Notes under the pieces: generated by a model | Database searches by the model: none | Seen by the model: the letters and a program-made list of their open reading frames with translations, nothing else | What the model was told of the DNA's origin: nothing | Origin: Thermodesulfobacteriota bacterium | Lineage (GTDB): Bacteria; Desulfobacterota_D; UBA1144 | Direction: 5' to 3' | DNA: 49,716 bases | NCBI GenBank assembly: GCA_036340075.1 | Contig: JAYYZJ010000011.1 | Location: 1-49,716 of the forward strand | Position numbers and translations under genes: made by a program | Shown here: positions 713-45,856 of the stretch, one piece after another | How positions within the stretch are numbered: the stretch's first letter is position 1 | How the letters are laid out: each line of letters starts with the position of its first letter

Positions 713-714
713 AT

Positions 715-1266: not shown

Positions 1267-1269
1267 TTC

Positions 1270-1716: not shown

Positions 1717-1717
1717 T

Positions 1718-3189: not shown

Positions 3190-3252
3190 AATTTCACATT
3201 TTAACCTTTTTACTGTAATAAGTATTACCTAAAATTTTAACTATAATATATT

Positions 3253-4560
3253 ATGGCAACAGACAGAATTATTTACCAAAGTGAATCTCTATTCGTTAGT
3301 CCGCACACAAAAGCTAATGACGCTAATATTACTTCTACGGATATCGAAGAGATTAATCGTGTTCAGGACATGAGTTATAACCTTGAGGTTACTCGTACTG
3401 ATATTAATGAGTTTGGTCAACTTGCTGCTCTTTCAAGAGAAGTAACTGAACCACCAACAGTAGCCCTGGATTTTTCATATTTTCTTACAGATGGAACTCA
3501 AGAAAAAAGTCTTGGTTTTGATCTGAATCAATATAGCAAATTACCTTTAGCAAACGCCACCCCAATGACTTCAAGTCTTCTAACAGGGAGTACTGAAGAA
3601 AAAAATTACTATATAGTAACAGCTCCAGAGGGTAAAGATGTTCATGGCGCAAATCTAGAAGATGGCGACCATGGCGTTATTGGAATTGGTAATGGATTTA
3701 TTACAAGTTATGGAATTACAGCTGCTGTAGGAGAACTTGCAAGCGCGAGTGTTTCTGTTGAAGCTTCTAATATCATGTTTAAAAATAATCTAGCTAATGG
3801 ATTCCAGAATCCATCAGTTGATGTAACATCTACAACTGGAGATAGGCTTTCAAATTTTGTAAGATTTAATACAAGTGGACCAACTACTCCAACTCATACA
3901 GATTTGCCTGGAACTCCAATGCAATCTTCTGACGGAGATATTAAGTCTAATTTCACGCAAAACGAAATTTTTGCACTTCGTCCTGGTGATATCGCAATTG
4001 ACTTTGACGCAGTTGGATGGCTAGACGGAACAAAAAGTGTTGGCGACTTAGCAGTTGGAGGAGCAATTCTCGATGGAGCAGGAGGAACTAAACCAACATC
4101 AAAAAGTACAGCTCATATTCAAAATGTTTCTTTGGATATTCCAGTAGGAAGAAGTCCTTTGAATAGACTCGGAAACCACTATGCGTTTGCTCGTAAAGTA
4201 GATTTCCCAGTGAACATGACACTTAGTGCCAGCGCACTGATGACTGACTTTTCTGACGGAAGTCTTGATGGACTAATCTGCGGAGGAGAGCAAAAAAGAG
4301 ATATTGCTATTATTATGAAAAATCGTTGTGGAGCAAGCACTCCATTAGTTTTCGTAATGAGAAATGCTATCCTTGATACACAAGCTTTCTCAGCTTCTAT
4401 TGGAGATAATAAGACGGTTGATCTTACTTTCTCTTCTCAGGTTGGTGGAGCAAACGATTCAGAAAATGGAATTTTCTTGCTTGCTGAACCAGGTAATCCT
4501 GGAGTACCAATGTACCAGGAAACTCCTACTCCGCAACCTATGGCTACTCCTACTCCGTAG
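3253..4560 (+). CDS. Major tail tube protein
   Basis: 435 aa, beta-rich with two similar halves (RTDINEFGQL / RSPLNRLGNH). Followed by a terminator, chaperone-like genes and the TMP. C-terminus ETPTPQPMATPTP. Confidence 0.65.
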   Translation: MATDRIIYQSESLFVSPHTKANDANITSTDIEEINRVQDMSYNLEVTRTDINEFGQLAALSREVTEPPTVALDFSYFLTDGTQEKSLGFDLNQYSKLPLANATPMTSSLLTGSTEEKNYYIVTAPEGKDVHGANLEDGDHGVIGIGNGFITSYGITAAVGELASASVSVEASNIMFKNNLANGFQNPSVDVTSTTGDRLSNFVRFNTSGPTTPTHTDLPGTPMQSSDGDIKSNFTQNEIFALRPGDIAIDFDAVGWLDGTKSVGDLAVGGAILDGAGGTKPTSKSTAHIQNVSLDIPVGRSPLNRLGNHYAFARKVDFPVNMTLSASALMTDFSDGSLDGLICGGEQKRDIAIIMKNRCGASTPLVFVMRNAILDTQAFSASIGDNKTVDLTFSSQVGGANDSENGIFLLAEPGNPGVPMYQETPTPQPMATPTP

Positions 4561-4582
4561 TAAGAGATTTAAGAGTTACAAT

Positions 4583-4615
4583 AAAACCTCAGATTTTCAC
4601 ATCTGGGGTTTTTTT
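4583..4615 (+). terminator. Rho-independent terminator
   Basis: AAAACCTCAGAT-TTTCAC-ATCTGGGGTTTT hairpin (one G:U pair) plus T-tract after the tail tube gene. Confidence 0.85.
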
Positions 4616-4645
4616 GTGTATTTACACATAAGGTAAAAGGAAAAG
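4615..4645 (+). promoter_or_regulatory. GTGTA motif within palindrome TGTGTA-TT-TACACA, followed by twin AAGG
   Basis: Read directly from the sequence; same architecture at 6834-6861. Confidence 0.5.
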
Positions 4646-4651
4646 TTTATT

Positions 4652-4936
4652 ATGAAAAATGAAAGAGAACTCTTAGAGTTTCAAGTTTTGCGTACAATTA
4701 CAAATTTGTATAAAAGCTTCTTGATCACAATAGAAGAATTAAGTGAAGATCATAAGCTTCAGTTTGATAAATTAAAAAAAGCAATGCCTGAGCATGAAAA
4801 AATATTGACTCAAGCAGAATATCTAGACGAAGGACAGCTTAATTATTTAAGAAAAAAAATACTAGACTCTGGAAACGACGCTAGAAGAGAATTATTTTCT
4901 TGTATGGAAAATTTTGATATAAACTTTAAAAAATAA
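4652..4936 (+). CDS. Hypothetical protein (tail module)
   Basis: 94-aa helical ORF with an AAGG-rich leader. Confidence 0.75.
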   Translation: MKNERELLEFQVLRTITNLYKSFLITIEELSEDHKLQFDKLKKAMPEHEKILTQAEYLDEGQLNYLRKKILDSGNDARRELFSCMENFDINFKK

Positions 4937-4973
4937 ATTTATTATTTATAATATATAAAAAGGAATAAGGATT

Positions 4974-5831
4974 ATGATTATTGACGAAAAAAACACGCTA
5001 TACTCTTTCTCTACTAATATTAATAAAACTGTTAAAGAAGAAGTAGAAAAGAAAAGTAAAAGAAAAAATAAAGAAACTGGAAAGATGGAGTATGTAACCT
5101 CAAAAGAAACTATTGAGGTTGAAAAAGAAGTGCCATATACTATATACATTAAAAAACCTAATAGGACAGAATTGGAAGAGGGTGATATGTTTTATAGTCT
5201 TGAGTTAAATAAATTTATAAAAATGGGTTTATTAACAAAAGCAATGCTTGCAAAGCAATATGGAAATCAAGGTGGAGTATGGTCTGAAAAAGAACAAAAA
5301 ATGTATGCAGACTTAATGTACAGGATGCATCAAAAGCAGCTTGAAGTTCAACAATTTTCTTTACTCGGGGGAGATGGTAAATTATCAGAAAGGCAAAAAG
5401 AAAAACTTGATACGGCTGTTAAAGAAATGGCTCAAGTTAAAAGAGAGTTGACTGAATATGAAATGGTTCAAAATTCTTTGTTTGATCATACTGCAGATAT
5501 AAAAGCTAGAAATAGAACGATAATGTGGTATATTTTACATTTGACATATTTTGTAGAAGGCGAGAATGACACAACAATTCACGAAACGTTTTTTGAAGGT
5601 GAAAACTTTGATCAAAAATACGACTCTTACCAAGATAAAGAAGATGATAGAGATGAACTTTACCAAAAAGTAATTGACAAAATATCTTCCGTTATAACAA
5701 TATGGTATATAAGTGGAACTCAAAATCAAGAAGGTCTTCAAAGAGTTATTGATCAAATGAAAAAAGACGAAGAAGATGCTGAAGAAGAAGAAGGCATTGA
5801 TCAAGAAATTGAAGAGAGTGTAGAAGCATAA
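4974..5831 (+). CDS. Putative tail assembly chaperone
   Basis: 285 aa, charged coiled-coil with acidic tail; lies between tail tube and TMP. Confidence 0.5.
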   Translation: MIIDEKNTLYSFSTNINKTVKEEVEKKSKRKNKETGKMEYVTSKETIEVEKEVPYTIYIKKPNRTELEEGDMFYSLELNKFIKMGLLTKAMLAKQYGNQGGVWSEKEQKMYADLMYRMHQKQLEVQQFSLLGGDGKLSERQKEKLDTAVKEMAQVKRELTEYEMVQNSLFDHTADIKARNRTIMWYILHLTYFVEGENDTTIHETFFEGENFDQKYDSYQDKEDDRDELYQKVIDKISSVITIWYISGTQNQEGLQRVIDQMKKDEEDAEEEEGIDQEIEESVEA

Positions 5832-5832
5832 A

Positions 5833-6834
5833 ATGCATGACGAGTTTGACTCGAAATTTCTAGAAAAAATATTTCTAGAAGTGTGCGAAGGGTTCTCTAC
5901 AACAAAAATAAAAGAAAAAACTTGTTACATTAAACACCCTTCAATTCAAGAATTGAATGTTGTTAACTCTTATTACGATCATTACTTTGATAAGGTCGTA
6001 AAGATGGGAATCCCTAAAGAGAAAGATTTAATGAAAACTTTAGAGGAGAATGGAGTGTGGTCAAAAGAAGACGAAGATAAAATAAAAAAACAAGAAATAG
6101 AACTAAAGGGTTTAAGGAAAACTTTAGGTAACTTATTTACAGAAAGAGAAAAAGAGCCAATAGAAAAAAGAATCAAAGAGCTTAAAAAAGAATATGAAGA
6201 TCATGCTAAAAAAAGAAGTTCTGTAGTAACTAATTCTGCGGAAGAATATGCAGACAAAAAGAGTAATGAAAAATTTTTATTTCATTGTCTTTACGAGGAT
6301 AAAGAATTAAAAAATAAAAAATTTCATGAAGATGAATTTGAAGAGATAGATTCTATAGAGTTGATGAATTTATATAAAGAATATAATTCTCATGCAGAAA
6401 AATTTTCAGAAAAGAATTTAAAACAATTATCTATATCTTCTATATTTAAAAGCGTCTTTAATTTGTACTCTAAGGATGTTACTAATTTTTTTAAAAAACA
6501 TCCTCTTGATTTAAGTTTTTATCAAATTAATCTATTAAATTATGGAAAGTTATTTGTTACAATTTTTGAGAATAATAAAATTCCAGAAAACATAATGGAT
6601 AATGCTGAAAAAATACTAAAACACGTAGACGAAGAAAAGGGAAAAAAGAATAAAGCTGAAAAAATTTCACAGAAAGCCAATGAATCAGATGGGTTTTCAT
6701 ATGCAAGAGCAAAGACTTCAGAAATGGAGAAAATGGGCGTTGAAAAATCAGGTGGAAAAGATATTCACAGTATAGCAGAAGATAATGGTGGAGAGCTTTC
6801 CATGGAAGATTTCATGAAAATTCATAAAAAATAG
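5833..6834 (+). CDS. Putative second tail assembly chaperone
   Basis: 333 aa, charged and helical, directly before the TMP. Shares layout with the previous ORF (YIKxP, then GVWS, then coiled coil), suggesting distant paralogy. Confidence 0.5.
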   Translation: MHDEFDSKFLEKIFLEVCEGFSTTKIKEKTCYIKHPSIQELNVVNSYYDHYFDKVVKMGIPKEKDLMKTLEENGVWSKEDEDKIKKQEIELKGLRKTLGNLFTEREKEPIEKRIKELKKEYEDHAKKRSSVVTNSAEEYADKKSNEKFLFHCLYEDKELKNKKFHEDEFEEIDSIELMNLYKEYNSHAEKFSEKNLKQLSISSIFKSVFNLYSKDVTNFFKKHPLDLSFYQINLLNYGKLFVTIFENNKIPENIMDNAEKILKHVDEEKGKKNKAEKISQKANESDGFSYARAKTSEMEKMGVEKSGGKDIHSIAEDNGGELSMEDFMKIHKK

Positions 6835-6869: not shown

Positions 6870-9800
6870 ATGAGTGTTGTCAATATACCAACGTCTGCTT
6901 CGGGCTACCATCAAAGTATTGTTAGCCAAGCTAGATCTGCGCAAAGAACAGTTAATAGGATGCAGATGTCCCCGACGTTGAACCCACAAGGGATGACTCA
7001 ACCTTTAGGGAAAATAACAAATTCAGCAAGTGAATTCCAGAAATCAATGGACGCTTCGGCTGCGCGTGTCTTTGCTTTTGGAGCAGCTGTCGGAGTAATA
7101 AATGGAATATCTGATGCATTCAGGGGGATGGTTGAATCAATGGCAGAAGTTGAAAAATCCTTAAAAGACATTCAGGTTGTAATGGAAGCTAGTGACGCCG
7201 CAATGCGAAGTTTTGGAGACGGGTTATTTGATGTGGCAAGAAATACTGCTACAAGTTTTGATTTAGTTGCGGCTTCAGCGACAGAGTTAGCAAGACAGGG
7301 ATTAAGTTCAGAAGAAACTTTGGCTAGGGTTAACTCGGCATTGATATTAAGTAGGCTTTCTGGGTTAGACACAGTTAAGTCGACAGAAACACTAACCGCT
7401 GCAATTAACTCGTTTAATAAAGAAGGTATAACTCATACCCAAGTAATTAATAGAATGGCTAATGTTGACGCAGCTTTTGCTGTATCTTCTGCAGACTTAG
7501 CTGAAGCGATTTCTAGAGCAGGAGCTGTGGCTCAATCATCTGGGGTGGCATTTAACGAATTAGCAGCGATAGTAACGGCTGTTCAACAAAGAACTGCCAG
7601 GGGTGGTTCAGTGATAGGAAACGGATTTAAAAGTATTTTTACTAGGATTAAAAGGAGTGGGGTTAGAGAAGCTTTAGAAGAAATTGGAGTAGCTACAAAA
7701 AATAATGACGGATCGTTTAGATCTTCAATAGCAATTTTAGAAGATTATGCGAAAGTATACCAAGGCTTAAGTGATACTCAGAAAGCTTATACGTCAGAAC
7801 AAATAGCTGGAGTGTTTCAAATTCAAAATTTACAAGCTTTAATACAAGATTTAAATAGTGGATATTCTGTATACAATAAGGCATTGTCAGTGGCTAATAA
7901 TACAACAAATGAAGCTATACAAAGAAATGATGCTTTAAATACAACTATGTCTGCACTGTTTGCTCAAACAACTTTAAGCGCAAAAGAATTAGCAGCAACT
8001 ATTGGAGAAGTAGGATTTTCAGAAAATTTTAAAGAAATTTTAACATTTTTAAATAACCTGGCTAAAAAATTAAACGAAATATTTTCCGAAGATAAAGGTA
8101 GCGATTTTGCTCAAAACTTAATTAGAGGAATAGGATCATTTTTAACTGGGCCAGGATTGGTTATAATGGGTGCTGCATTTTTGAAAATATTCGGATTAGT
8201 AGCGAAGTTTGCAAAAGAAGCTTTTGCGGATTTATTAGGAGTTAATAAAGAAGCAAAAAGACAACAGAGTTTGCAAGTTGCTATAGGTCAAATACTTTCT
8301 ACTAATGCTGGAGTTTATCAAAAAATATTAGCTGCTGGAACAAGCACTGCAAAACAACAGCAAATAATATTAAATTTAATAAAACAAGAAACAGCTGAAA
8401 GACTAAAACAAGAAGCTTTAATTAAGAGAATAGCTGGGGGTAGAGTGCTAGCTGGTATTGGAGCTGGAGAACAGGGTTTTATTCCAATGGGGAAAAAATC
8501 TGCACAAAGAAAAGGTAGAAAAACCTTAGGAATGGCGTCTGGCTTTTTACCTTCGATTGGAAAAGAAATGAGCGATATAAATTCTGGAATTGGAGGAGCA
8601 AGAAAGGGAGATAAGCCAGTAGTTTTAAAAGGGCATAAAATGAGTGGGGGTAGAAGGGAAAATGTAGTTGCTCATACTGGAGAGTGGGTAGTTTCTAATT
8701 TTGCTGGCACTGGTGGGGATGCTATCTTTAATAGAGATATGATAAAGAAAATGGGGAAACCAAAGGGGGCTAAAAAAATAACAGCTTCTTCTGGTTTCAT
8801 ACCGAATTACGCAAAACCTGTTCAAAAAAAATATATGGCTGTACAGGCTTCAGCGAGAAGATTAGACTGGAGGCAAGGCGGCAGATCTTTAATATCTAAA
8901 TTTTCAGATGGAGTAGATATGTTTAAGGCTATGATAAAAATTAACAGGATGGAGCAAACATCTAAGCAACTTGGGTCTAGAGCTCACGCCTGGGTAACTG
9001 GAAAGCCAATGAGTGGAGATAGTATTATTAAGGGAGAACAAATTCCAGAAAAATCTACAAAAGCATGGTTTATAAGAGATAAAAATAAAGACGGGACTAA
9101 ATATAAATTAAATTTTTCCATGAAAAATGTAGAGTCAGGGTTAAGAAAAGAATTTGGAACATTAATGGACCAGCCTACAGGTAAAAGTTTGTTAACTACA
9201 GTTAATAATTTGACTGATGAAAAAAAGACTCCTAGATTTAAAGACAAAGTACCAAAAAAAGTTCAAGGAAGATTTGCTCATATAACAAACTTATTGAAAG
9301 GGCTACAAGGAGAAAAACTTGCTAGATCTAAACTCAGAAAAGATAGAGGCAGTGGAGATTATATAAGGGGTAATGAATCTTTTGATTTAAAGTACAAAAA
9401 TAAAAAGGGAGAAGAAAGATTTTCTGAGGTAAAAGCTGTAAGCCAGCAAGATTTGTTGCCTATATTAAAAAAAGGTGCAACACAATTTTTGCGGTCAACA
9501 GGAAAAGATTTTAAAAACGAAGAAAAAGATATTATAAACGTAAACAAAGGCTCTTCTCAAATATCTGGATTTTTAGAGTTAATGACAATGGCGGATACTG
9601 AAGTGACTAGACCTTCATTTGCAAGAGGCTACGTGCCTAATTTTGGTAAGTTTAATTTGTTTGAGGGAGTCAGAAAAACAAAAGGAGGGAAAGATTATAT
9701 TTGGGAAAACGAGTTAGCTCAAGCAAAACATCAGCTACCAGAAGGAACAAAATTTACACCCTGGGCAAAAAATCCAAAAATGATTTTTGTATCAGGGCAC

Positions 9801-12800
9801 AAGGCTAAACCTGGAATAAATAAAAATAAAATTTCTTTCAAAAGCTCTAGTGAGCTTGAAGAGTTTGGAAAATTTGCAGCTCAAGAAGGTTACCCTGAAA
9901 TTATGGCTAGTATTGTTAAAAATACTGGCATGGAGGAAGCATCCAAAAAATTAATGGGGAACACTTTTGCTCAAAGAGCTTATGATAGAAAGGCTGGAAA
10001 AAAAACAATTCAAACTTTACCCAACGAAATAGATATTGATAATATTAAAAATATTAAAGTAGGAGATTTTAAAAGCTTTGAGCATGGTCAAACAGGAGCC
10101 AATCTAAGGAGGTTGTATACCCCAGAATCTTTCGATAGAGTTAAAAATGAAAAATTTATTCAAAAACCAATAGGTCAAAGAGAATATATGCCACTTGGTG
10201 GGGCGACTGAACCAAAGATGGCTAATATTTATGATTCTGATGAAAATATTTTTAGGAGCATACAGAAAGCAAGAGGGAAAAATTTAATTGATTCCAGTAC
10301 GATAGAATCTTTATATAAAAAATTCTTAAATCAAAAAAGTAGCAGTCAGTTTTCTTTAGGTTACATACCTAATTTAGCATCATTGTTAAAGGCTAGAAAA
10401 ATGCATGATGGTTTTGGACCTCAAATGGGTGGATCGGGAGTAAGATCTAAGAAGTTTAAAGACTCGGGTTCTTTTCTTGAGTATCAAGGTAATGAGCTTG
10501 AGTTTATACAATCAATGAGAAAGGGTGACGCTAATCTACTTTTCGATAGATTTGTAAGGCAAAAAGGCTCTGTATATAGTCCAGGTATAAAACAAAATAG
10601 AAGTTTTAAACAAGGTTCAAAAACAAATTTTGAAGATTTAATTTATGCTTTTCCTCAACTACAATATAGATTAAAAAAGGGATTTGAGACGACTGGAAGA
10701 TATGTTGGAGCAAATGGAGAAAGTTTTAGATTTCTAAATCTAAAAGATTTAAAAGAACAAATTAATAAAAAATATAGCAGAGAAGAATTTCGTCAGTATT
10801 TAGGCGGAGAAGGTGTTGTAGGAATGGGCAAGATGGATGTACAGGATTTAACGACCAATGTAATCAAAGGTAGGGGAGATGATATATATAAAAATTACGC
10901 AAGAGGTTTTATTCCTAATTTTGCAAGAGTATATGGAAGGCGTTCAAAAAAATGGCAAGAAAGAGAAGGTCGAATAAAAGCTCTTTTAGAATCAGAGAAA
11001 GCATTAGGTCATAATGTTAAATTTAAATTAAAAGAAAAAGAAGTTAGGAAGATAAGATCAAAAAATATGTTTCAACAAATGTGGTTGGAATCATACTTTA
11101 AGAAAGGTAAAAAAAGTGATTACGATATGTTATTAAAAATGGGTTATGATAAAGAAACTTTATTATCTCTAAGAAAGCATGTTGGTAATGGGGGAATAGT
11201 AGATGTTTTAAGTAAAGGTTATTTACCTAACTTCGCAAAAGGAGTGCAGACATCAAAAGGTTTTTTTACCACTCAAAAACTAAGAAGGCTGACAGGCGGA
11301 GATTTTGCAAAATCAGAAACTGGAGAAAAGCTTTTCTTAAATCAATTTTCAAGAAAAGATCAAGATGCTATAAAAAACTTTCAAGCTCCAAATTCAAAAA
11401 TGAATATAGCTAGAGCCAAAGCAGCAAGCAAAGATAATAGAAATAAAATGCCAACTATAGATGCTTCAAGGCAGGCTACAATGCTAGTTGCTACGAATGG
11501 ATTGAGAAGAAAAGTTGATGCTACATATAAACATAAAGATATAAATTATAGATTAAAATATAGAGTTGAGGGTTTAAAACCTTCCAGGTTAAAAAGTACG
11601 GAATCTTCAGTAAGAAACAAAATTGAAAACATTTTAATTTCAGAATCAAATAATCTCGCTAAGAATCTTTCTGGGACTGGACAATTTGGAGCTTCTACTC
11701 CAGCTGTTCAAAAATTATCTAATGCAGGAAGTGTTGGATCGGCTGCAGGAACAGTTTTTGAATCTGCAGTTTCGGCTATAGGAAAAAATAGATTATTTAC
11801 AAGTAATAATGCAAGGTTTGACATTTCTGGAATGCCAGACGATAAGCTTAAAAACTTATTTGGTTATTACACTCCTTTTGCAGATGCGAAAATAGGAATG
11901 ACGCCAGACACAAAAAGAGATTTTCATAGTAAGTTAATGACGCTACCCACTTCAGCAAAAAATATAGCTGGTTCAGAAAGAAAAAAACAAGGGGCAATAG
12001 CTAGGGGTGTTAGAAAAAAATATGGACCACCAACTGTATCAGAGGGGTTTATTCCAAACTTTGCTAGACCTGTATTCGCTGGAAGATCAAGAAGATTAAA
12101 AACTGGAGGTTTATTCTCGCCAAGAGATTTTAAAAGACTAGAAAAAACGAGAGATGATATAAATTTAATGGGTGGAATATATATTAGACCTGGAAAAATA
12201 ACAGACAATAGCATGCCCTTTGGAGCTTTAAGTTCTAGAGATTTATCTTTACTTGAAAACAACCTTAAGAAATATGGAAAAAAACATGGTGTTGATAACG
12301 CATTGACAGAAAAAGTTTTAAGAGCGTATGGTTTAAATCCGCAGTTTAAAGATAAAGTTGGATCTATTAAAGAGAGAGGTGATTATTTGTATAATTGGGG
12401 TAAAAATATTTCTGACATTAAAGGGTACAAAAAGAGAGATGAAGAAAGATTTGATTTTTTAAGAAGTTCTAGGATAAATAGAGCTGCTGCATCTGGGTTT
12501 ACTCCAAATTTTACACATCCATTAAGTGAAGCTATTCAAAGAGAAGCGTCGGCATTAAGAGATAGAAAATTACCTGTATCATCAATAAGGATTGAGAAAT
12601 CAAATAGATTAAGAAATAATAAAAATCCAATAGGATTAGCTGTTACAAATAGATTTGATGAGCCTGGAGGGCTACAACAAGGCATAAACAGGTCTAATAG
12701 AATGGGGATAGACCCTGCGAGCCATGGAGCGCTAGCTGCAGAAGGCTATGTTCCTAATTTCATACTTCCAGCTTTAGCTGTAGCAGGTAGGGGAGCTTTG

Positions 12801-15800
12801 ATGGTTGGGCAAGTAGGTCTCAGAGGAGCTGCTATGGCAGGTAGAATTGGTATGCAGGGAATGGCACATGCGGGTAGATATGGCATGCAGGGAGCTAGAT
12901 ATGGCATGCAGGGAATGGGACATGCCGCTAGATATGGCATGCGGGGAATGGGACATGCGGGTAGATATGGCATGCGGGGACTATCTAGAAGTAGGCAATT
13001 ATTAAGAGATCGAAAAGCATTAAGATTAAGAAACAAAAGAAGAATGAGGGATGCGGGAAAAGAACCAAGATCGATGTTTGGATTTGATAGTCCTATAGGT
13101 CAAGGTGCATCAATGGGGGGAATGTTTTTGGGTCCAATGGTAGCAGAACAAGTTAGAAATGGAGAGCAGGCAATGAGCGGAAGTAAAGGTATGATGCATG
13201 ATACTTTAATGGGAGCTTCTTACGGATCTATGTTTGGTGTACCAGGAATGATTGCTGGGGCAGGGGCAGGACTGCTTCATGGAGAGCTTAAAAGTGAAAG
13301 TAGGGATCAAATTAAAAATATGACCGAGGGAATAGACAAAGCTAAAAGAAAATTAGATAAAATATTATCTGATACATCCGAAATTGAAAGATATGGAGAG
13401 GCATTAGGTGAATTGCAAGTAGCAATGGAAGTTGGAGATGCAGAAGGAATAGTTGAAGCTAATAAAGAAATTAGAGAATCCTTACGAAATATAAAAGATC
13501 CAGAACTGGCTGCAGAAATAAATAGCATAGCAACCTCAAGTATGTCAGCAACAGAAAAACTTCAATTAATGGGCGAAGCTGTCGAAGGTTTAAAAAATAG
13601 AGCGGAATTATTCGAGGCAGCAATCAATGCAGGTCAGGAAATAAGAGATTTTAAAGAACAAAATGATCCATTAGTAAAAGGTGGAGAAGATGGTAGTATG
13701 CTGGGGAACGCAAAAAATTCAGTTTTAGCCTTCTTAGGGTCAGTGGCTGGATACGGCGATTACGAACAAAATAAAAGATTCCTAGATAAGAAAGATAGTG
13801 ATATTTATTCAAACGATCCTGATGCTGCAAAAGACCAAGCAAAAAGATTGATGCCTAATATTGTAAATCAAATAAAAATTGATGCAGAGAAGCAAACCTT
13901 GAAAGAATTGTCTTCTGGCGAAGCTCAGGGTAGACTAAATACAGATATTGAAACCGTAACAAATTTACAAGGTTTATTGAAAGAAATTGATATTTTAACT
14001 GAGCAAGCTAAGACAGATACAACGGGTAAATTTGTTGGTGATGGAGAAGGGAGGAAAGCTCTTGACAAAGCGATGAATGAAGCTAGAGATGCTTTTGCAT
14101 TTGATAATTTTGAAGATAAAGGTTTGGGATTTGCCATGCAAGAAATCGAAAGAAATGGGGGAATAACTACTCAAAGTTTGAAAGAGGTAACTAAAGAATT
14201 AGAAGCTATGAAAAAAGTGGCTGATAGTTTAAAAGGCTTAGAAGGTCAAACAACAGATCAAATAAAAAAGGCTATATCGAAAGATGCAAATCTCGAGACT
14301 GCAGCTTCAACAATAACTGAAGATATACAGTTTAGATCAACAGAAAAAGATTTACAACTTTTACTGGATAATAAATTTGAATCAACAGATTTTGCGAAAG
14401 GGTTAAGAGAAACAGCTGGTGGTAATCAAGTAGCTACAGATATAGGAAATGCAATGGAAGAGAGTGAGATTTTTAAAATGGCATTGATTGGCGAATTAAT
14501 GGATTCACTTAAGTCAACACAAACTGGATTTATTGATATGGGAAAAGCTTTAGAAGTTGCAGCTAAGGTAATGAATGATCATAATAATGCAGGGGAAAAA
14601 GTTAGACTTTCTTATGAAAGAATGATTGCCGCTCAAGAAATGGCAGAAAACGCTCTGGAAAGGTTTTCAAATGGTCTAGATAACTCAAGGGGCGCTCTTG
14701 AAAATATTGTTGGATTTTTATCTGATGGCAATCAATATTTAAGGGATACAAATTCAATAACAAGTCAGGAAGCCAATGACAGACAATTTAAGCTTCAACA
14801 AAAAGCTATGGACATAACTCAAGAGCTAGACTTAAAAGAAGGCTTGATGAATTTAATTGGCAATAGTATTGATATATCAAGTATGTTTAACCCCGATAAA
14901 ACCATTAAAACAGAAATGGGAGTCCCAGACAAAAATCCTACCTCGATAGTTGGGCAAATGAAAAAAGATATTGATGATGAACTCGCTCCTCAACAAGAAG
15001 GTATGGCGAATGAATTTGCAAATTTCATGAATAATAATCAGGATGGAAACATAACCTTAGACGAGATAAAAGGGTTGATGATAAATTTAAATAACTATGG
15101 ATCAGAAGGAAATAAAATAGCTAAGAAGGCGCAAATTTTGATAGACAAACATCAAATGAAAGCTCAAAGACAAAGAGAAGCCATGTTAATGCAAAGAGAA
15201 TTGCAAGAAGCTAGGGAGGCTAGTGATTTTCTGCAAAGAACTGGAGCCTCTATAATGGGAATAAATGAAGAAAGGGCTATAGCTGATCTATCTCCATCTT
15301 TAGATATGTCTGGGGCTAACAGTGTAATTAGATCGGCTGTCGGAGGACTAAATCCAAATGCTGCAGACGCATCTCTGATATCTAATATGGATCAATTTGC
15401 AAGTATCATGAATATTCCAACCGAAGAAATTCTAGGTGTTAATTCAGATGATTTAGCATTAACAAGAAGTTTAGCTAATTTAGAAAAAGCTATAGAAGCT
15501 TTAAGGATTGGAAACGGAGGATCTCTACCCCCAGGAATGAATGAATTTTTTAACGATCTAAGGCAGCGATTGTTTGAAAACCATGACAAAACTGTAGCTG
15601 CTAGAGGAAAGGTTGAGGAATATAATAAGCATTTCCTTGAAGGTGGATTAGATATGGCTCTACTGGGTGGACCAATGGAACAAACAGCTGCTCATTTAGC
15701 TTTTATAAATTCAAATGGAATTAAAATAAGTAATTTTTCAGAACTAACTGGTTTTAGTGCAACTGAGCCTCCTGGGATTAGCCTCAATGGTGAACCTGGA

Positions 15801-16391
15801 TTCGTTTCAAATCCTTTAATGTCTCCACCAGGGGATGGCAGTCAACTATCTAATCCTGGAGGAGTTCCAGATATGCCTGAACTTGGGATGATGATTGAAG
15901 CATTAAAATTAATGCAGTCTGAAGGAGTTATAGTAAAAAATATACAAGAAATAGGAGTTGCAATAGCTGAGAATTTAAAACAAGTAAAAGAAGAATCTTC
16001 TGGAGAATTAATAGAGGTAATGTCTAGTTTAAATGAAAACATCGGAATAACATCAGAATCTTTAAGTTCTTTTGGCGAAAATATTCAAGTTCTTTCTGAA
16101 TCATTAGCTCCTATTTCTGAAAGTGCTAGTTTATTGAGCGAAACTTTTACAACAGTTTCAGATACAATGAATTCGTTCCCAGAATTACTAAGAGGGCAAT
16201 TAGAAGAAGTTACCTTCCAACATGCAGTTACTGGGAATATAGAAATGAATTTTAACAGCTCAGTTGTCCAAGGAGTGTTGGGGCCAGCAATGTATGATCA
16301 ATTAAAGAAAATATTAGTAGAGCCAATGATTTTAGATTATTTATCAAAAGCTATAGGAACAAGAATAGACCCTCAGGGAAGGTTGAACTAA
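6870..16391 (+). CDS. Tail tape measure protein (TP901/PhageMin_Tail-type N-terminus) with internal motif-delimited cargo modules
   Basis: 3173 aa. N-terminal region has ELARQGLS...LTAAINSF...AVSSADLAEAISRAG...IGNGFKSIFTR typical of the TMP core, plus Gly/Ala-rich hydrophobic segments, a long helical C-terminal part, and the canonical gene position. Confidence 0.9.
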   Translation: MSVVNIPTSASGYHQSIVSQARSAQRTVNRMQMSPTLNPQGMTQPLGKITNSASEFQKSMDASAARVFAFGAAVGVINGISDAFRGMVESMAEVEKSLKDIQVVMEASDAAMRSFGDGLFDVARNTATSFDLVAASATELARQGLSSEETLARVNSALILSRLSGLDTVKSTETLTAAINSFNKEGITHTQVINRMANVDAAFAVSSADLAEAISRAGAVAQSSGVAFNELAAIVTAVQQRTARGGSVIGNGFKSIFTRIKRSGVREALEEIGVATKNNDGSFRSSIAILEDYAKVYQGLSDTQKAYTSEQIAGVFQIQNLQALIQDLNSGYSVYNKALSVANNTTNEAIQRNDALNTTMSALFAQTTLSAKELAATIGEVGFSENFKEILTFLNNLAKKLNEIFSEDKGSDFAQNLIRGIGSFLTGPGLVIMGAAFLKIFGLVAKFAKEAFADLLGVNKEAKRQQSLQVAIGQILSTNAGVYQKILAAGTSTAKQQQIILNLIKQETAERLKQEALIKRIAGGRVLAGIGAGEQGFIPMGKKSAQRKGRKTLGMASGFLPSIGKEMSDINSGIGGARKGDKPVVLKGHKMSGGRRENVVAHTGEWVVSNFAGTGGDAIFNRDMIKKMGKPKGAKKITASSGFIPNYAKPVQKKYMAVQASARRLDWRQGGRSLISKFSDGVDMFKAMIKINRMEQTSKQLGSRAHAWVTGKPMSGDSIIKGEQIPEKSTKAWFIRDKNKDGTKYKLNFSMKNVESGLRKEFGTLMDQPTGKSLLTTVNNLTDEKKTPRFKDKVPKKVQGRFAHITNLLKGLQGEKLARSKLRKDRGSGDYIRGNESFDLKYKNKKGEERFSEVKAVSQQDLLPILKKGATQFLRSTGKDFKNEEKDIINVNKGSSQISGFLELMTMADTEVTRPSFARGYVPNFGKFNLFEGVRKTKGGKDYIWENELAQAKHQLPEGTKFTPWAKNPKMIFVSGHKAKPGINKNKISFKSSSELEEFGKFAAQEGYPEIMASIVKNTGMEEASKKLMGNTFAQRAYDRKAGKKTIQTLPNEIDIDNIKNIKVGDFKSFEHGQTGANLRRLYTPESFDRVKNEKFIQKPIGQREYMPLGGATEPKMANIYDSDENIFRSIQKARGKNLIDSSTIESLYKKFLNQKSSSQFSLGYIPNLASLLKARKMHDGFGPQMGGSGVRSKKFKDSGSFLEYQGNELEFIQSMRKGDANLLFDRFVRQKGSVYSPGIKQNRSFKQGSKTNFEDLIYAFPQLQYRLKKGFETTGRYVGANGESFRFLNLKDLKEQINKKYSREEFRQYLGGEGVVGMGKMDVQDLTTNVIKGRGDDIYKNYARGFIPNFARVYGRRSKKWQEREGRIKALLESEKALGHNVKFKLKEKEVRKIRSKNMFQQMWLESYFKKGKKSDYDMLLKMGYDKETLLSLRKHVGNGGIVDVLSKGYLPNFAKGVQTSKGFFTTQKLRRLTGGDFAKSETGEKLFLNQFSRKDQDAIKNFQAPNSKMNIARAKAASKDNRNKMPTIDASRQATMLVATNGLRRKVDATYKHKDINYRLKYRVEGLKPSRLKSTESSVRNKIENILISESNNLAKNLSGTGQFGASTPAVQKLSNAGSVGSAAGTVFESAVSAIGKNRLFTSNNARFDISGMPDDKLKNLFGYYTPFADAKIGMTPDTKRDFHSKLMTLPTSAKNIAGSERKKQGAIARGVRKKYGPPTVSEGFIPNFARPVFAGRSRRLKTGGLFSPRDFKRLEKTRDDINLMGGIYIRPGKITDNSMPFGALSSRDLSLLENNLKKYGKKHGVDNALTEKVLRAYGLNPQFKDKVGSIKERGDYLYNWGKNISDIKGYKKRDEERFDFLRSSRINRAAASGFTPNFTHPLSEAIQREASALRDRKLPVSSIRIEKSNRLRNNKNPIGLAVTNRFDEPGGLQQGINRSNRMGIDPASHGALAAEGYVPNFILPALAVAGRGALMVGQVGLRGAAMAGRIGMQGMAHAGRYGMQGARYGMQGMGHAARYGMRGMGHAGRYGMRGLSRSRQLLRDRKALRLRNKRRMRDAGKEPRSMFGFDSPIGQGASMGGMFLGPMVAEQVRNGEQAMSGSKGMMHDTLMGASYGSMFGVPGMIAGAGAGLLHGELKSESRDQIKNMTEGIDKAKRKLDKILSDTSEIERYGEALGELQVAMEVGDAEGIVEANKEIRESLRNIKDPELAAEINSIATSSMSATEKLQLMGEAVEGLKNRAELFEAAINAGQEIRDFKEQNDPLVKGGEDGSMLGNAKNSVLAFLGSVAGYGDYEQNKRFLDKKDSDIYSNDPDAAKDQAKRLMPNIVNQIKIDAEKQTLKELSSGEAQGRLNTDIETVTNLQGLLKEIDILTEQAKTDTTGKFVGDGEGRKALDKAMNEARDAFAFDNFEDKGLGFAMQEIERNGGITTQSLKEVTKELEAMKKVADSLKGLEGQTTDQIKKAISKDANLETAASTITEDIQFRSTEKDLQLLLDNKFESTDFAKGLRETAGGNQVATDIGNAMEESEIFKMALIGELMDSLKSTQTGFIDMGKALEVAAKVMNDHNNAGEKVRLSYERMIAAQEMAENALERFSNGLDNSRGALENIVGFLSDGNQYLRDTNSITSQEANDRQFKLQQKAMDITQELDLKEGLMNLIGNSIDISSMFNPDKTIKTEMGVPDKNPTSIVGQMKKDIDDELAPQQEGMANEFANFMNNNQDGNITLDEIKGLMINLNNYGSEGNKIAKKAQILIDKHQMKAQRQREAMLMQRELQEAREASDFLQRTGASIMGINEERAIADLSPSLDMSGANSVIRSAVGGLNPNAADASLISNMDQFASIMNIPTEEILGVNSDDLALTRSLANLEKAIEALRIGNGGSLPPGMNEFFNDLRQRLFENHDKTVAARGKVEEYNKHFLEGGLDMALLGGPMEQTAAHLAFINSNGIKISNFSELTGFSATEPPGISLNGEPGFVSNPLMSPPGDGSQLSNPGGVPDMPELGMMIEALKLMQSEGVIVKNIQEIGVAIAENLKQVKEESSGELIEVMSSLNENIGITSESLSSFGENIQVLSESLAPISESASLLSETFTTVSDTMNSFPELLRGQLEEVTFQHAVTGNIEMNFNSSVVQGVLGPAMYDQLKKILVEPMILDYLSKAIGTRIDPQGRLN
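8793..12761 (+). repeat. Eight dispersed copies of peptide motif G[FY][IVLT]PN[FYL] in the TMP
   Basis: GFIPNY 8793, GYVPNF 9627, GYIPNL 10359, GFIPNF 10905, GYLPNF 11217, GFIPNF 12045, GFTPNF 12495, GYVPNF 12744; degenerate copies GFIPM 8475 and GFLPS 8541. Confidence 0.95.
12840..12980 (+). repeat. Tandem 33/21-bp coding repeat (GRYGMQGMGHA-like, 11/7 aa)
   Basis: Five units; four carry TAGATATGGCATGC(A/G)GGGA and the first is a degenerate copy. Confidence 0.9.
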
Positions 16392-19716: not shown

Positions 19717-19717
19717 T

Positions 19718-23901: not shown

Positions 23902-23902
23902 T

Positions 23903-24208: not shown

Positions 24209-24209
24209 A

Positions 24210-41286: not shown

Positions 41287-41310
41287 ATAACAAAATAACT
41301 AATAACAATC

Positions 41311-42684: not shown

Positions 42685-42689
42685 TATAC

Positions 42690-44170: not shown

Positions 44171-44181
44171 ACTAATTAAAT

Positions 44182-44619: not shown

Positions 44620-44651
44620 ACTAACACTTTAACATTATATGAATAAACATT

Positions 44652-45838: not shown

Positions 45839-45856
45839 TTATATTAAAATTTAATT

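What the first reader, a model, noticed from the sequence alone, without database searches (positions are those of the whole stretch)
8475..12761. Tape measure protein built as a cassette array: eight G[FY]xPN[FYL] motifs delimit unrelated cargo modules
Seen: within the TMP, the motif [AS]xG[FY][IVLT]PN[FYL] recurs at aa 642, 920, 1164, 1346, 1450, 1726, 1876 and 1959 (spacings 278, 244, 182, 104, 276, 150, 83 aa). The segments between copies do not resemble each other by eye, are Lys/Arg-rich and look globular, unlike the helical, more acidic flanks. The motif uses different synonymous codons in different copies, so it is conserved at the protein level. Established: TMPs fill the tail lumen, are ejected into the cell, are proteolytically processed in several phages (e.g. 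lambda gpH), and can carry enzymatic domains. Inference: this is a polyprotein that delivers a variable set of effectors with the DNA, the motif acting as a protease site, chaperone-binding site or module-exchange junction. That would make it a polymorphic effector system housed in the TMP.
Basis: partly seen in the sequence, partly recalled or inferred. Interest (0 to 1): 0.9.

Follow-up and report, generated by a model that had tools for sequence, protein, structure and literature searches.

The report
Cassette array inside phage tape measure
A giant phage tail "ruler" protein carries a string of swappable, basic, enzyme-like domains that each end in the same ten-residue tag, so the ruler probably also delivers proteins into the host ahead of the DNA.

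Summary
ORF 6870-16391 is a 3173-aa TP901-type tape measure protein (TMP). It has exactly eight G[FY][IVLT]PN[FYL] copies at the stated positions; shuffles give 0.0012. The motif is found only in the TMP. All 120 giant TMP relatives examined carry it, 1-15 copies each. Homology blocks end at the motif, and the segments between copies are gained, lost, duplicated and sometimes reordered, giving 100 architectures among 120 proteins.

The window's seven segment families share only the tag, apart from a weak core match between segments 1 and 5. All seven are strongly basic. Segment 1 (aa 648-925) folds with confidence as a globular alpha/beta domain. Its invariant E-D-ExK-K residues sit on a nuclease-like core, and the tag lies in low-confidence linkers. 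Segment 5 (aa 1456-1731) has the same signature. Two relatives carry a GNAT acetyltransferase cassette.

The cassette reading is supported. Effector delivery and cleavage at the tag remain inference. No protease was detected, there is no significant enzyme match, the three segments tested are not found outside TMPs, and five segments were not folded. This is a new variant of known kinds (TMP-embedded enzyme motifs, polyvalent proteins). Interest 0.72.

The parts
6870..16391 (+). Tape measure protein gene, 3173 aa (P0001)
   Evidence: It is the longest ORF of the window. Pfam PF10145 PhageMin_Tail matches aa 123-314 at E 8e-28. NCBIfam TIGR01760 tape_meas_TP901 matches aa 79-407 at E 4e-32. Eleven PHROG TMP families match the N-terminal part only.
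7104..8090 (+). Conserved TP901-type N-terminal TMP domain (aa 79-407), followed by a hydrophobic segment near aa 420
   Evidence: The N-terminal segment matches 116 of the other 119 proteins over more than 60% of both lengths.
8475..8558 (+). Two degenerate motif copies (GFIPMG at aa 536, GFLPSI at aa 558)
   Evidence: G536 and G558 are invariant columns in the 24-protein alignment A1.
8559..8810 (+). Bracket unit A (aa 564-647), ending in motif copy 1 (GFIPNY, nt 8793-8810)
   Evidence: It matches the family-3 HMM at E 3.9e-43 over aa 564-647. Family 3 is related to family 2 (unit B) at HH probability 95% over 70 columns.
8811..9644 (+). Segment m1 (aa 648-925, family 6), a folded alpha/beta domain with a PD-(D/E)xK-like signature, ending in motif copy 2 (GYVPNF, nt 9627-9644)
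   Evidence: AlphaFold2 gave mean pLDDT 81.4 and pTM 0.77. D680, D683, G811, E815, D839, E853, K855 and K868 are invariant in 15 and in 23 sequences. The top Foldseek rows are nucleases, but none is significant.
9645..10376 (+). Segment m2 (aa 926-1169, family 28, rare), ending in motif copy 3 (GYIPNL, nt 10359-10376)
   Evidence: The family has 4 members in all. A search of proteins of similar length found 2 short proteins only. Not folded.
10377..10922 (+). Segment m3 (aa 1170-1351, family 4), ending in motif copy 4 (GFIPNF, nt 10905-10922)
   Evidence: The family has 22 members at differing positions in their proteins. Conserved polar residues are listed. Not folded.
10923..11234 (+). Segment m4 (aa 1352-1455, family 7), ending in motif copy 5 (GYLPNF, nt 11217-11234)
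   Evidence: The family has 18 members. Not folded, because the job failed.
11235..12062 (+). Segment m5 (aa 1456-1731, family 1), the core segment of the whole TMP family with an E-D-(D/E)xK-K signature, ending in motif copy 6 (GFIPNF, nt 12045-12062)
   Evidence: The family has 72 members in 69 proteins, and m5 is the only internal segment of the minimal ~1800-2000-aa TMPs. G1627, D1651 and K1674 are invariant; E1631 and K1688 are nearly so. The core aligns with that of m1 at probability 70%. No free-standing relatives were found.
12063..12512 (+). Segment m6 (aa 1732-1881, family 35, rare), ending in motif copy 7 (GFTPNF, nt 12495-12512)
   Evidence: The family has 3 members. Not folded.
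12513..12761 (+). Bracket unit B, also called m7 (aa 1882-1964, family 2), ending in motif copy 8 (GYVPNF, nt 12744-12761)
   Evidence: The family has 61 members and is usually the last segment of the array. R1891, E1892, N1919, P1920, G1922, N1927, D1930, E1931 and P1932 are invariant. The HMM match has E 1.2e-33.
12762..13379 (+). Gly/Met-rich basic region (aa 1965-2170) with an 11-aa tandem repeat (nt 12894-12980)
   Evidence: G fraction 0.19 and pI 11.2. A 33-nt repeat is present in 2.6 copies with 94% matches. Relatives show a GxxxG-type consensus here, and P0083 has a Pfam Gly-zipper hit.
13380..16391 (+). Acidic C-terminal part (aa 2171-3173)
   Evidence: pI 4.55 and net charge -65. It is poorly conserved in the family: 13 proteins match it, at 21-31% identity apart from P0002 at 86%.
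4974..6834 (+). Two ORFs at the position of tail assembly chaperones (285 aa, acidic; 333 aa, in the +1 frame)
   Evidence: Position is. The first has pI 4.81 and an acidic tail. They are conserved upstream of the TMP in 17 and 19 of 26 related loci, including the two loci that lack the motif. No family hit was found. Calling them chaperones rests on position only.

Best explanation
The gene is the tape measure protein of an uncultured lineage of large aquatic long-tailed phages. Its central third (aa ~531-1964) is a cassette array. Six cargo segments (m1-m6) are flanked by two paralogous ~80-aa bracket units. Every unit ends in the junction peptide [AF]-[AS]-x-G-[FY]-[IV]-P-N-[FY]-A, which sits in a flexible linker.

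Shown here:
- The junction peptide is conserved at protein level.
- It is confined to TMPs.
- It marks the points at which segments have been inserted, lost, duplicated and permuted across the family.
- The segments are strongly basic and, apart from the tag, largely unrelated to each other.
- At least m1 is an independently folded domain with a complete, invariant PD-(D/E)xK-type set of residues on the matching helix and strands. m5 carries the same signature.
- Two relatives carry a GNAT acetyltransferase as a cassette.

Inferred:
- TMPs leave the tail first and enter the envelope or cytoplasm (established for lambda, HK97 and T5). The array would therefore be delivered ahead of the DNA and act as a polyvalent injected protein. 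Its basic nucleic-acid-directed or host-modifying domains would work at the entry site.
- While still in the tail the array lies extended and also counts as ruler.
- The tag is a common handle that one partner reads at every junction. I rank proteolytic release after ejection first (about 0.35 of the total), because the conserved residues lie on the upstream side and are followed by a small residue. Docking to an assembly chaperone or the tube lumen comes second (about 0.3).
For: TMP identity.

Motif statistics:
- 8 copies against 0.0012 expected.
- 621 relaxed copies in 120 proteins against 0.55 per shuffle replicate.
- Zero other copies in the six frames of the window.
- In 26 related loci, 79 copies in the main TMP frame and 4 in split TMP pieces, against 1 elsewhere in 202 kb.
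- None in the longest plus-strand frames of the 10 more distant loci L027-L036, recovered through 25-31% matches to the N-terminal TMP domain; the four checked with the looser pattern (L027, L028, L029, L035) also had none.

Logo from 493 distinct contexts: conservation is confined to positions -3 to +6, with A 59% and S 10% directly after the aromatic residue, and G/K/S/P-rich flanks.

Junction role: of 166 unsplit BLASTP HSPs from 113 proteins, 64% end within 10 aa of a motif end and 67% start within 15 aa of a motif. Random positions give 11% and 17%. Without the m7-only HSPs (n=95), 1 and 9 of 2000 random sets reach the observed values.

Variability: 219 segment families, 100 architectures among 120 proteins, 23 of 173 family pairs in both orders, and 14 proteins with a duplicated family.

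Segments unrelated.

Basic charge: the window; 93% of 542 internal segments are net positive, against 50% of C-terminal parts.

Folded domain: pLDDT 81.4, pTM 0.77. E815 lies on helix 796-826, D839 is at the start of strand 840-843, E853 and K855 are on strand 849-855, and K868 is on helix 862-877. Both tags have pLDDT below 50.

Same signature in m5. The m1 and m5 cores align at probability 70%.

Foldseek: by title, 9 of the top 10 PDB rows are nucleases (Cas4-family ACE1, HindIII, FAN1, Card1, AvaII). Nine of the 14 described rows among the top 30 BFVD rows are nuclease-type.

GNAT cassette lying between two motifs in P0064 and P0069.

Precedents: enzyme motifs inside TMPs (PMC1796659, abstract) and injected polyvalent proteins with GNAT domains (PMC7824862 and PMC5512222, passages).
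Against: - No enzyme assignment is statistically significant. Pfam's best hit for m1 is NOV_C at E 0.15. Among 15 relatives only 2 weak hits were to nuclease-type families (NOV_C, RE_TaqI), each in a single member, and no Pfam family was matched by more than one member. PDB profile searches found nothing. All Foldseek matches have E >= 0.11 and TM <= 0.23.
- The ESM Atlas gave nothing for m5 and only a rank-7 lead at score 0.80 (Tox-REase-7) for m1.
- The three segments tested are not found outside TMPs. This fits TMP-specific structural elements as well as it fits cargo.
- No peptidase domain was seen in the TMP or in the window's ORFs.
- Cleavage before or during assembly would break the ruler.
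- Unit A of relatives holds internal [IV]PNF pseudo-copies. Some relatives have tandem 34-aa mini-segments that are little more than the tag. Both fit a docking or structural role better than release of cargo.
- Two related TMPs (L017, L021) have lost the motif, yet L017 keeps the family-1 segment.
- Five of the seven segments were not folded.
- Delivery, activity and cleavage are all untested.
Confidence: 0.55

Rival explanations
1. Ruler and assembly only. The segments are lineage-specific TMP filling, and their number sets the tail length. The tag is a structural or assembly element. It could be a repeated docking site for the tail assembly chaperones or the tube lumen, or a node that keeps the three TMP chains in register where there is no coiled coil. 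The segments would have no role inside the host.
For: - The segments are confined to TMPs.
- In TM4, removing a 114-aa enzymatic motif shortened the tail by about 20 nm, so embedded domains do count as ruler (PMC1796659, passages).
- TMP lengths in the family run from 1784 to 4887 aa among the proteins, and to 5940 aa stop-to-stop in L001.
- There are pseudo-copies of [IV]PNF inside unit A and tandem 34-aa mini-segments.
- The tag occurs in no other protein.
- Basic segments would suit an acidic partner, and the first chaperone-position ORF has pI 4.81 with an acidic tail.
Against: - m1 is a compact folded domain, not a helix, with an invariant catalytic-type residue set kept down to 22-34% identity.
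- There is a GNAT cassette with an intact acetyl-CoA-type motif (the motif label is recalled).
- Ruler filling would not need 219 unrelated families.
- The chaperone-position ORFs are just as conserved next to the two motif-less TMPs.
- This rival is not exclusive of the main reading, because a segment can be ruler in the virion and enzyme in the cell.
Confidence: 0.3
2. The tag is a self-cleaving site. The invariant Asn would cyclise and cut the chain, as in asparagine peptide lyases, once the TMP leaves or refolds outside the tube. No protease gene would then be needed.
For: - N is 100% and P is 100% conserved within the strict pattern by definition. N stays at 93-100% in the family alignments, where it was free to vary.
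- No peptidase domain was found.
- The tag lies in flexible linkers.
- That Asn-Phe and Asn-Ala bonds self-cleave in some virus capsid proteins is recalled, not tested.
Against: - Known Asn lyases need a folded catalytic environment. Here the flanking segments are unrelated, so each could not supply one.
- Nothing here measures cleavage.
- The conserved aromatic and aliphatic residues look more like a binding epitope.
Confidence: 0.08
3. The tag is only a scar of the recombination mechanism. A DNA-level site would be used for cassette exchange, with no function as a peptide.
For: Homology blocks end at the tag, and segment order changes.
Against: - The copies use different synonymous codons and are only 68-80% identical over 25 nt.
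- The peptide is kept across relatives whose segments have diverged to 14-30% identity.
- Conservation is asymmetric at residue level.
Confidence: 0.04

Closest known systems
Enzymatic motifs embedded in mycobacteriophage tape measure proteins (TM4 gp17 motif 3, Rpf-like motif 1; Piuri & Hatfull 2006, PMC1796659; abstract and passages read)
   Same: Extra, non-ruler functions sit inside a TMP. They are dispensable for assembly and act at infection. The embedded piece still counts towards tail length.
   Different: In TM4 there are one to three small motifs with clear host homologues (cell-wall hydrolases) and no common delimiter. Here there are up to 14 internal segments per protein, mostly without any homologue outside TMPs. 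Each ends in the same decapeptide, and they are shuffled between relatives.
Polyvalent proteins of phages and conjugative elements (Iyer et al. 2017, PMC5512222; passages read; also PMC7824862)
   Same: These are giant polypeptides that string together unrelated domains (including GNAT and nucleases). They are thought to be injected with the DNA and to be separated into units after delivery.
   Different: Those proteins are head- or conjugation-delivered, they draw on a catalogued domain repertoire, and they usually carry a zincin-like peptidase for processing. The text of that paper contains 'tape measure' 0 times. Here the carrier is the TMP, no peptidase domain was detected, the domains are nearly all uncatalogued, and a fixed junction peptide is present.
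Sle1-type effectors of actinobacterial contractile injection systems, related to TMPs (Nagakubo et al. 2026, PMC13277306; abstract read)
   Same: A TMP-like scaffold is packed in a tail-like tube and ejected. It carries an exchangeable functional domain that differs between species.
   Different: Sle1 has one C-terminal functional domain per protein and belongs to a bacterial nanomachine. No repeated junction motif or multi-cassette array is described in the abstract. I did not read the body of the paper.
MARTX toxins (search listing and start of abstract only, PMC6315884; the rest recalled)
   Same: This is a 'works like' comparison. Conserved flanking regions carry an internal, strain-variable string of effector domains, which are released at inter-domain sites after translocation (recalled).
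   Different: MARTX is a secreted bacterial toxin with its own cysteine protease domain and with Leu-containing sites. There is no sequence relation and no membership claim. Release at the tag is not shown here.
T4 internal proteins and their cleaved targeting sequence (recalled, no call)
   Same: They are small basic proteins, variable between relatives, injected with the DNA and cut at a short consensus site by a phage protease.
   Different: They are packed in the head as separate genes and cut by the prohead protease. Here a single tail protein carries the string, and no protease is known.

Membership tests
TP901-type phage tail tape measure proteins (PF10145 / TIGR01760) | N-terminal PhageMin_Tail / tape_meas_TP901 domain above the curated cut-off | tested here: met
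   PF10145 scored 98.1 bits against a cut-off of 33.2. TIGR01760 scored 111.5 bits against 28.8.
TP901-type phage tail tape measure proteins (PF10145 / TIGR01760) | Largest gene of the tail module, placed after two chaperone-position ORFs and before the distal tail genes | tested here: inconclusive
   Size and order fit, and the order is conserved in related loci. None of the neighbouring ORFs matches any named family, so their roles rest on position alone.
TP901-type phage tail tape measure proteins (PF10145 / TIGR01760) | Protein length sets tail length (about 0.15 nm per residue) | not testable with these tools
   No virion is available. The prediction is about 476 nm if all 3173 aa count.
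Polyvalent proteins (Iyer et al. 2017) | Several unrelated catalytic or binding domains in one virion-delivered giant polypeptide | tested here: inconclusive
   Unrelated segments: met. Folded domain with a catalytic-type residue set: m1 only, with the same signature in m5. GNAT is present in 2 of the 120 relatives, not in the window. Delivery was not tested.
Polyvalent proteins (Iyer et al. 2017) | A processing peptidase domain (zincin-like MPTase or other) in the same protein | tested here: not met
   There is no peptidase family in Pfam scans of the window TMP, of its segments, or of 24 different relatives. A divergent, uncatalogued peptidase cannot be excluded.
PD-(D/E)xK nuclease superfamily (for segments m1 and m5) | Acidic and Lys residues (E ... 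D ... (D/E)xK) placed on the first helix and on the second and third strands of an alpha-beta-beta-beta-alpha core | tested here: met
   For m1, the invariant E815, D839, E853, K855 and K868 lie on helix 796-826, strands 840-843 and 849-855, and helix 862-877 of a confident model. For m5 the same residue pattern is invariant or nearly so, but there is no model. The definition of the core is recalled.
PD-(D/E)xK nuclease superfamily (for segments m1 and m5) | Significant sequence or structure match to an established member | tested here: not met
   Pfam gave NOV_C at E 0.15 and RE_TaqI at E 0.12, each in a single member. PDB profile searches found nothing. The best Foldseek values are E 0.27 (PDB) and 0.11 (BFVD), with TM <= 0.23. 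I therefore call it PD-(D/E)xK-like, not a member.
Polymorphic toxin / effector systems | Variable modules drawn from a pool shared with other carriers or free-standing genes | tested here: not met
   m5 and m2 against 5.8 billion proteins of similar length gave 2 short proteins each. P0121 and P0122 were read and are TMP pieces. P0126 and P0127 were not read. m1 against 1.84 billion representatives gave 4 hits: the TMP P0017, the 1970-aa P0123 (not read), and the TMP pieces P0124 and P0125. The other four segments were not tested.
Viral polyproteins with protease sites | One conserved site at every junction, with conserved residues on the upstream side and a small residue after the cut | tested here: met
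   Logo of 493 contexts. A is 59% and S 11% after the tag in 621 copies. The placement of the cut is an assumption.
Viral polyproteins with protease sites | A cognate protease and observed cleavage products | not testable with these tools
   No protease domain was detected in the 49.7-kb window. The rest of the genome lies outside the window, and no proteomics exist.

The most novel reading that the evidence does not exclude
A widespread lineage of large aquatic phages has turned its tape measure protein into a MARTX-like delivery string. The TMP threads an exchangeable series of basic enzymes (PD-(D/E)xK-type nucleases, acetyltransferases and many unknown folds) into the host ahead of the genome. 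These are freed at a new, TMP-specific junction peptide, either by an unknown protease or by self-cleavage at the invariant Asn. The cassettes would then be a large, uncharted reservoir of host-takeover or counter-defence activities, sorted by a simple sequence tag.
Probability: 0.25. Interest if true: 0.9.

Novelty: new variant of a known kind. Interest (0 to 1): 0.72.

Why it matters
TMPs are usually treated as rulers and channel formers. Their sequence mosaicism has been noted but could not be confirmed as genuine domain exchange (PMC10684548, passages).

Here a short invariant tag makes the exchange units explicit and countable: 621 junctions and 219 segment families in only 120 proteins. 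If the segments act in the host, the tag gives a one-line rule for harvesting hundreds of unknown injected activities from metagenomes. It would also give a defined site, for cleavage or docking, to test experimentally.

It also bears on two other questions. One is how globular domains are stored in a tail lumen. The other is why TMPs are contact points for host factors and defences (PMC13190303, passages).

Tried and rejected
Searches that found nothing:
- megablast and tblastn of the TMP, the array, unit A, unit B and the putative tube protein against 50,697 deposited phage genomes gave no match. Only the N-terminal domain matched, at 22-27% identity among the 30 rows listed, in 252 records.
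- PDB sequence searches with the whole TMP and with two family profiles gave nothing meaningful.
- Pfam on each segment, on 24 different relatives and on the 15 members of A4 gave no shared family beyond PF10145.
- PADLOC gave none.
- ESM Atlas gave no usable hit for m5 and only a 0.80 lead for m1.
- dN/dS between L004 and L012 was uninformative, because the two are 98.4% identical.
- Presence of the chaperone-position ORFs does not track the motif.

A planned homotrimer test of unit B (alignment A5) was not run.
- The job for aa 1346-1970 (A2) was accepted but failed, so m4-m7 are unfolded. m2 and m3 were never submitted.

Readings considered and rejected:
- Chance.
- A DNA repeat or recombination site.
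- A general virion-protein processing site, because the tag is found only in TMPs.
- Cargo borrowed from free-standing genes.

Literature:
- Six spelled-out variants of the tag gave 2 unrelated papers.
- 'tape measure protein' with polyprotein and modules gave 1 unrelated listing.
- 'tape measure protein' with polyvalent protein gave 6 papers, none describing such an array in the listings or passages read.
- Searches with restriction endonuclease-like, with effector domains, and with tail lumen or globular domain also gave nothing equivalent.
- Subscription journals and supplementary files were not searched.

Full report
WHAT IS THERE

The window is a phage genome piece with about 31-34% G+C. 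ORF 6870-16391 on the plus strand is by far its longest, at 3173 aa. Its N-terminal part matches Pfam PhageMin_Tail (aa 123-314, E 8e-28), NCBIfam tape_meas_TP901 (aa 79-407, E 4e-32) and eleven PHROG tape-measure families. Nothing beyond aa ~520 matches any library.

The gene follows two ORFs at the position of tail assembly chaperones and precedes five large acidic ORFs. None of these 13 structural neighbours matches a PHROG. Neither the TMP DNA nor the array matches any of 50,697 deposited phage genomes. This is therefore the tape measure protein (TMP) of a lineage with no cultured relative in that collection.

OBSERVATION CHECK

In 20000 shuffles the mean count was 0.0012 and the maximum 1. 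Two degenerate copies lie upstream (aa 536 and 558), and the first of them explains the finding's start coordinate.

Codons differ between copies, and the DNA copies are only 68-80% alike over 25 nt. The tag occurs nowhere else in the six frames of the 49.7-kb window, not even as the four-residue core [IVL]PNF in any open frame of 100 aa or more.

The segments are basic (pI 9.6-10.4, net charge +4 to +27 each), while the C-terminal 1003 aa are acidic (pI 4.55, net -65).

ANATOMY OF THE TAG

From 493 distinct contexts in relatives, information is confined to about ten residues: [AF]-[AS]-x-G-[FY]-[IV]-P-N-[FY]-A. The flanks on both sides are unconserved and rich in G, K, S and P. The residue after the aromatic is A in 59% and S in 11% of 621 copies. 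In the one model obtained, both tags lie in stretches with pLDDT below 50, outside the folded domain.

THE FAMILY

A search with aa 530-1990 found 259 proteins, of which the best 120 (all 1784-4887 aa) were examined.
- All 120 carry the strict tag, 1 to 12 times.
- A slightly relaxed pattern gives 621 copies (1-15 per protein, median 5), against 0.55 per shuffle replicate.
- A scan of one genome per prokaryotic species returned 26 related loci. All are contigs filed under MAGs of many different phyla, which I read as phage contigs swept into bins. It also returned 10 more distant loci, matched only through the N-terminal TMP domain at 25-31% identity.
- In the 26 related loci, 79 tags lie in the main TMP frame and 4 in split TMP pieces, against 1 elsewhere in 202 kb.
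- The longest plus-strand frames of the 10 distant loci (542-2509 aa) have none. The four of them checked with the looser pattern also have none.
- Two related TMPs (L017, L021) have lost the tag and show decayed remnants.

CASSETTE BEHAVIOUR

Cutting the 120 proteins after each tag gave 782 pieces of 30 aa or more. These fall into 219 families, of which 142 are singletons.

The window reads 0-6-28-4-7-1-35-2-5. Close relatives read, for example, 0-3-6-1-28-4-7-29-48-49 and 0-6-4-1-.-.-35-.-2-.. The smallest TMPs (~1800-2000 aa) read 0-1-C. There are 100 distinct architectures. Internal segments number 0-14 (median 4). Fourteen proteins repeat a family. Of 173 family pairs that co-occur in three or more architectures, 23 occur in both orders and 150 in only one. 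Order is therefore mostly kept, with real exceptions.

The cut points were checked without assuming them. Of 166 BLASTP HSPs of the uncut window protein against 113 relatives, 64% end within 10 aa of a tag end and 67% start within 15 aa of a tag. Random positions give 11% and 17%. After leaving out HSPs that cover only the last segment (n=95 remaining), 1 and 9 of 2000 random position sets reach the observed values.

Two results count against a simple picture. First, 50 of the 166 HSPs cross a tag by more than 30 aa on both sides, because neighbouring segments often travel together. Second, HSP ends pile up at only four of the eight tags (aa 1346, 1450, 1726 and 1959). The other junctions appear as HSP starts or are covered by few relatives.

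The N-terminal ~630 aa are recognisable in 116 of the other 119 proteins. The window's C-terminal part is recognisable in only 13, so only one flank is conserved.

WHAT THE SEGMENTS ARE

Profile-profile comparison of the window's seven families gave 18 of 21 pairs that align over only the last 8-17 columns, which are the tag. The other three pairs align 30-55 columns at probability 70% or less. Wider links do exist: family 6 with 14; family 1 with 25, 27, 32 and 33; and family 2 with 3.

Of 542 internal segments in the family, 93% are net positive, against 50% of C-terminal parts. Their lengths are below 60 aa in 10, 60-119 aa in 170, 120-399 aa in 316, and 400 aa or more in 46.

Segment m1 (aa 648-925):
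- It keeps D680, D683, G811, E815, D839, E853, K855 and K868 invariant in alignments of 15 and 23 sequences, down to 22-34% identity.
- AlphaFold2 on aa 636-937 with 23 sequences gave mean pLDDT 81.4 and pTM 0.77. The model is a compact alpha/beta domain. E815 lies on a long helix, D839 is at the start of a strand, E853-x-K855 are on the next strand, and K868 is on the following helix. That is the layout I recall for PD-(D/E)xK nucleases.
- Foldseek found no significant match: 0 with E <= 0.001, best E 0.27 in PDB and 0.11 in BFVD, and TM <= 0.23.
- By title, 9 of the top 10 PDB rows are nucleases (Cas4-family ACE1 twice, HindIII, FAN1 three times, Card1, AvaII twice). Nine of the 14 described rows among the top 30 BFVD rows are restriction, Mrr, RecB, VRR-NUC or PD-(D/E)XK proteins.

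Segment m5 (aa 1456-1731):
- It is the core segment of the whole family, with 72 members.
- G1627, D1651 and K1674 are invariant, E1631 and K1688 are nearly so, and [DE]-x-K precedes in almost every row.
- Its core aligns with that of m1 at probability 70% over 39 columns that do not include the tag. A cruder run gave the same register at probability 0.5%.

In two relatives, Pfam places a GNAT acetyltransferase between two tags: P0064 at aa 1359-1419 with tags at 1339 and 1523, and P0069 at aa 1266-1320 with tags at 1243 and 1426. Lysozyme and chitinase-type domains in other relatives lie in the C-terminal part, outside the array.

Evidence against a pool of borrowed cargo:
- m5 and m2 against 5.8 billion proteins of similar length gave two short proteins each. 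P0121 and P0122 were read and are TMP pieces. P0126 and P0127 were not read.
- An exhaustive HMMER search of m1 against 1.84 billion representatives gave four hits: the TMP P0017, the 1970-aa P0123 (not read), and the TMP pieces P0124 and P0125.

BRACKETS AND ODDITIES

The cargo string is bracketed by two distantly related ~80-aa units:
- aa 564-647 matches family 3 at E 4e-43.
- aa 1883-1964 matches family 2 at E 1e-33.
- Families 2 and 3 are related at HH probability 95%.

Unit B has nine invariant residues. It is followed by a Gly/Met-rich region with an 11-aa tandem repeat. In relatives, unit A contains two inner [IV]PNF pseudo-copies. P0050 and P0061 have tandem 34-aa mini-segments that are little more than a short helix-like stretch plus the tag.

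HOW IT MOST LIKELY WORKS

Shown: a TMP-specific junction peptide, selected at protein level, marks the exchange points of a variable string of basic segments. At least one of these segments is a folded domain with an enzyme-type centre.

Inferred from established TMP biology (TMPs exit first and reach the membrane or cytoplasm; recalled, and see PMC13190303, passages): the string is delivered ahead of the DNA and acts there. The TM4 experiment shows that the string also counts as ruler while in the tail (PMC1796659).

What reads the tag is open.
- Cleavage fits the one-sided conservation, the small following residue and the linker position.
- Docking to a chaperone or the tube lumen fits the pseudo-copies, the mini-segments and the absence of any detected protease.

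I put the polyvalent-delivery reading at 0.55 overall, with cleavage slightly ahead of docking. I put a ruler and assembly-only reading at 0.3.

COMPARISON WITH WHAT IS KNOWN

The nearest precedents are as follows:
- Enzyme motifs inside mycobacteriophage TMPs (PMC1796659).
- Polyvalent injected proteins (PMC5512222). That text never mentions tape measure proteins.
- TMP-related CIS effectors with one swappable domain (PMC13277306, abstract).
- By analogy only, MARTX toxins and T4 internal proteins (recalled).

A study of phage protein mosaicism reported a mosaic signal in TMPs but could not confirm genuine cases (PMC10684548, passages). Searches for the tag strings and for several combinations of terms found no description of such an array. 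Subscription journals and supplements were not covered.

LIMITS

- Only one of the seven segments was folded. The second job failed and could not be resent.
- The rest of this phage's genome, including any protease, lies outside the window.
- All functional statements are predictions.

VERDICT

The cassette-array reading is supported. The effector and cleavage reading is plausible but unproven. This is a new variant of known kinds, with interest 0.72.

Noticed in passing
window 38735-49336 (+): There is a contiguous glycan and nucleotide-sugar island. It holds a Fringe-like glycosyltransferase, two Sulfotransfer_2 genes, LicD, a Caps_synth glycosyltransferase, three cytidylyltransferases, a GDP-mannose-dehydratase-type epimerase, a methyltransferase, a sugar-phosphate isomerase/epimerase with a CBS domain, a DAHP_synth_1 (KdsA-like) gene, a CTP_transf_3 (KdsB-like) gene and an RraA-like gene. 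It looks like a phage-borne Kdo-type sugar pathway with sulfation. Its target (host surface, virion or DNA) is unknown.
   Followed up: partly
window 299-6834 and 16432-25994 (+): None of the 13 ORFs around the TMP (head-tail joining, putative tube, chaperone-position and distal tail ORFs) matches any PHROG at E <= 1e-5. The gene order is nevertheless conserved in up to 19 of 26 related loci. This is a structurally uncharted tail module.
   Followed up: partly
window 4974-6834 (+): The two chaperone-position ORFs abut. The second starts 2 nt after the first one's stop and is in the +1 frame, not the -1 frame of the classical G/GT pair. The first ends in an acidic run (EEDAEEEEGIDQEIEESVEA), which could suit the very basic array. 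No slippery site was looked for.
   Followed up: no
window 4560-4974: A G+C-rich hairpin followed by a T run, resembling a terminator, lies directly after ORF 3253-4560. That ORF is the putative major tail protein: acidic, with a Pro/Thr-rich end. A small unannotated ORF lies before 4974. Both were seen in the sequence printed.
   Followed up: no
window 12866-12980 (+), TMP aa ~2000-2037: There is a 33-nt (11-aa) tandem repeat, ARYGM[QR]GMGHA, with 2.6 copies at 94% matches. It lies in a Gly/Met-rich basic stretch right after the last tag. It may be the membrane-active glycine-zipper part of the TMP.
   Followed up: partly
L001:12775-30594 (and the split N-terminal piece from about 10001): A related TMP reads 5940 aa stop-to-stop, with 11 relaxed tags and two family-1 and three family-2 units. 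The N-terminal domain lies in another frame upstream, so the gene is either frameshifted or mis-assembled. If all residues counted as ruler, the tail would be close to 0.9 um.
   Followed up: partly
P0050 aa 1097-1532; P0061 aa 1115-1397: There are tandem 33-35-aa mini-segments (consensus like AEELENKQREKEIFESHQDGSKNRKYFGGLIPNF). Their last ~20 residues also end a neighbouring large segment, so in this sub-lineage the tag has a longer conserved lead-in.
   Followed up: partly
L017:9923-14269; L021:9971-15136: Two related TMPs have no tag, only decayed remnants (such as ...EMEPNL......QIPRFNKG......ASGFTPDVD...). L017 still has the family-1 segment. These are natural loss-of-tag variants and would be useful for comparison.
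   Followed up: partly
loci L001-L026: Contigs carrying this phage-type tail module are filed in MAGs labelled as many unrelated phyla, including Flavobacteriales, Neomarinimicrobiota, Verrucomicrobiales, Saccharibacteria, Nitrospinales, Cellvibrionales and Halobacteriovorax. This is most simply phage contigs mis-binned into genomes. The labels should not be read as hosts.
   Followed up: no
proteins P0121 and P0126 (both listed with a longest contig of 111,524 bases): One relative's TMP appears as several short ORFs (230 aa and 180 aa) that are 87-88% identical to adjacent parts of the window's array. It may be a frameshift-ridden assembly or a decaying gene.
   Followed up: no
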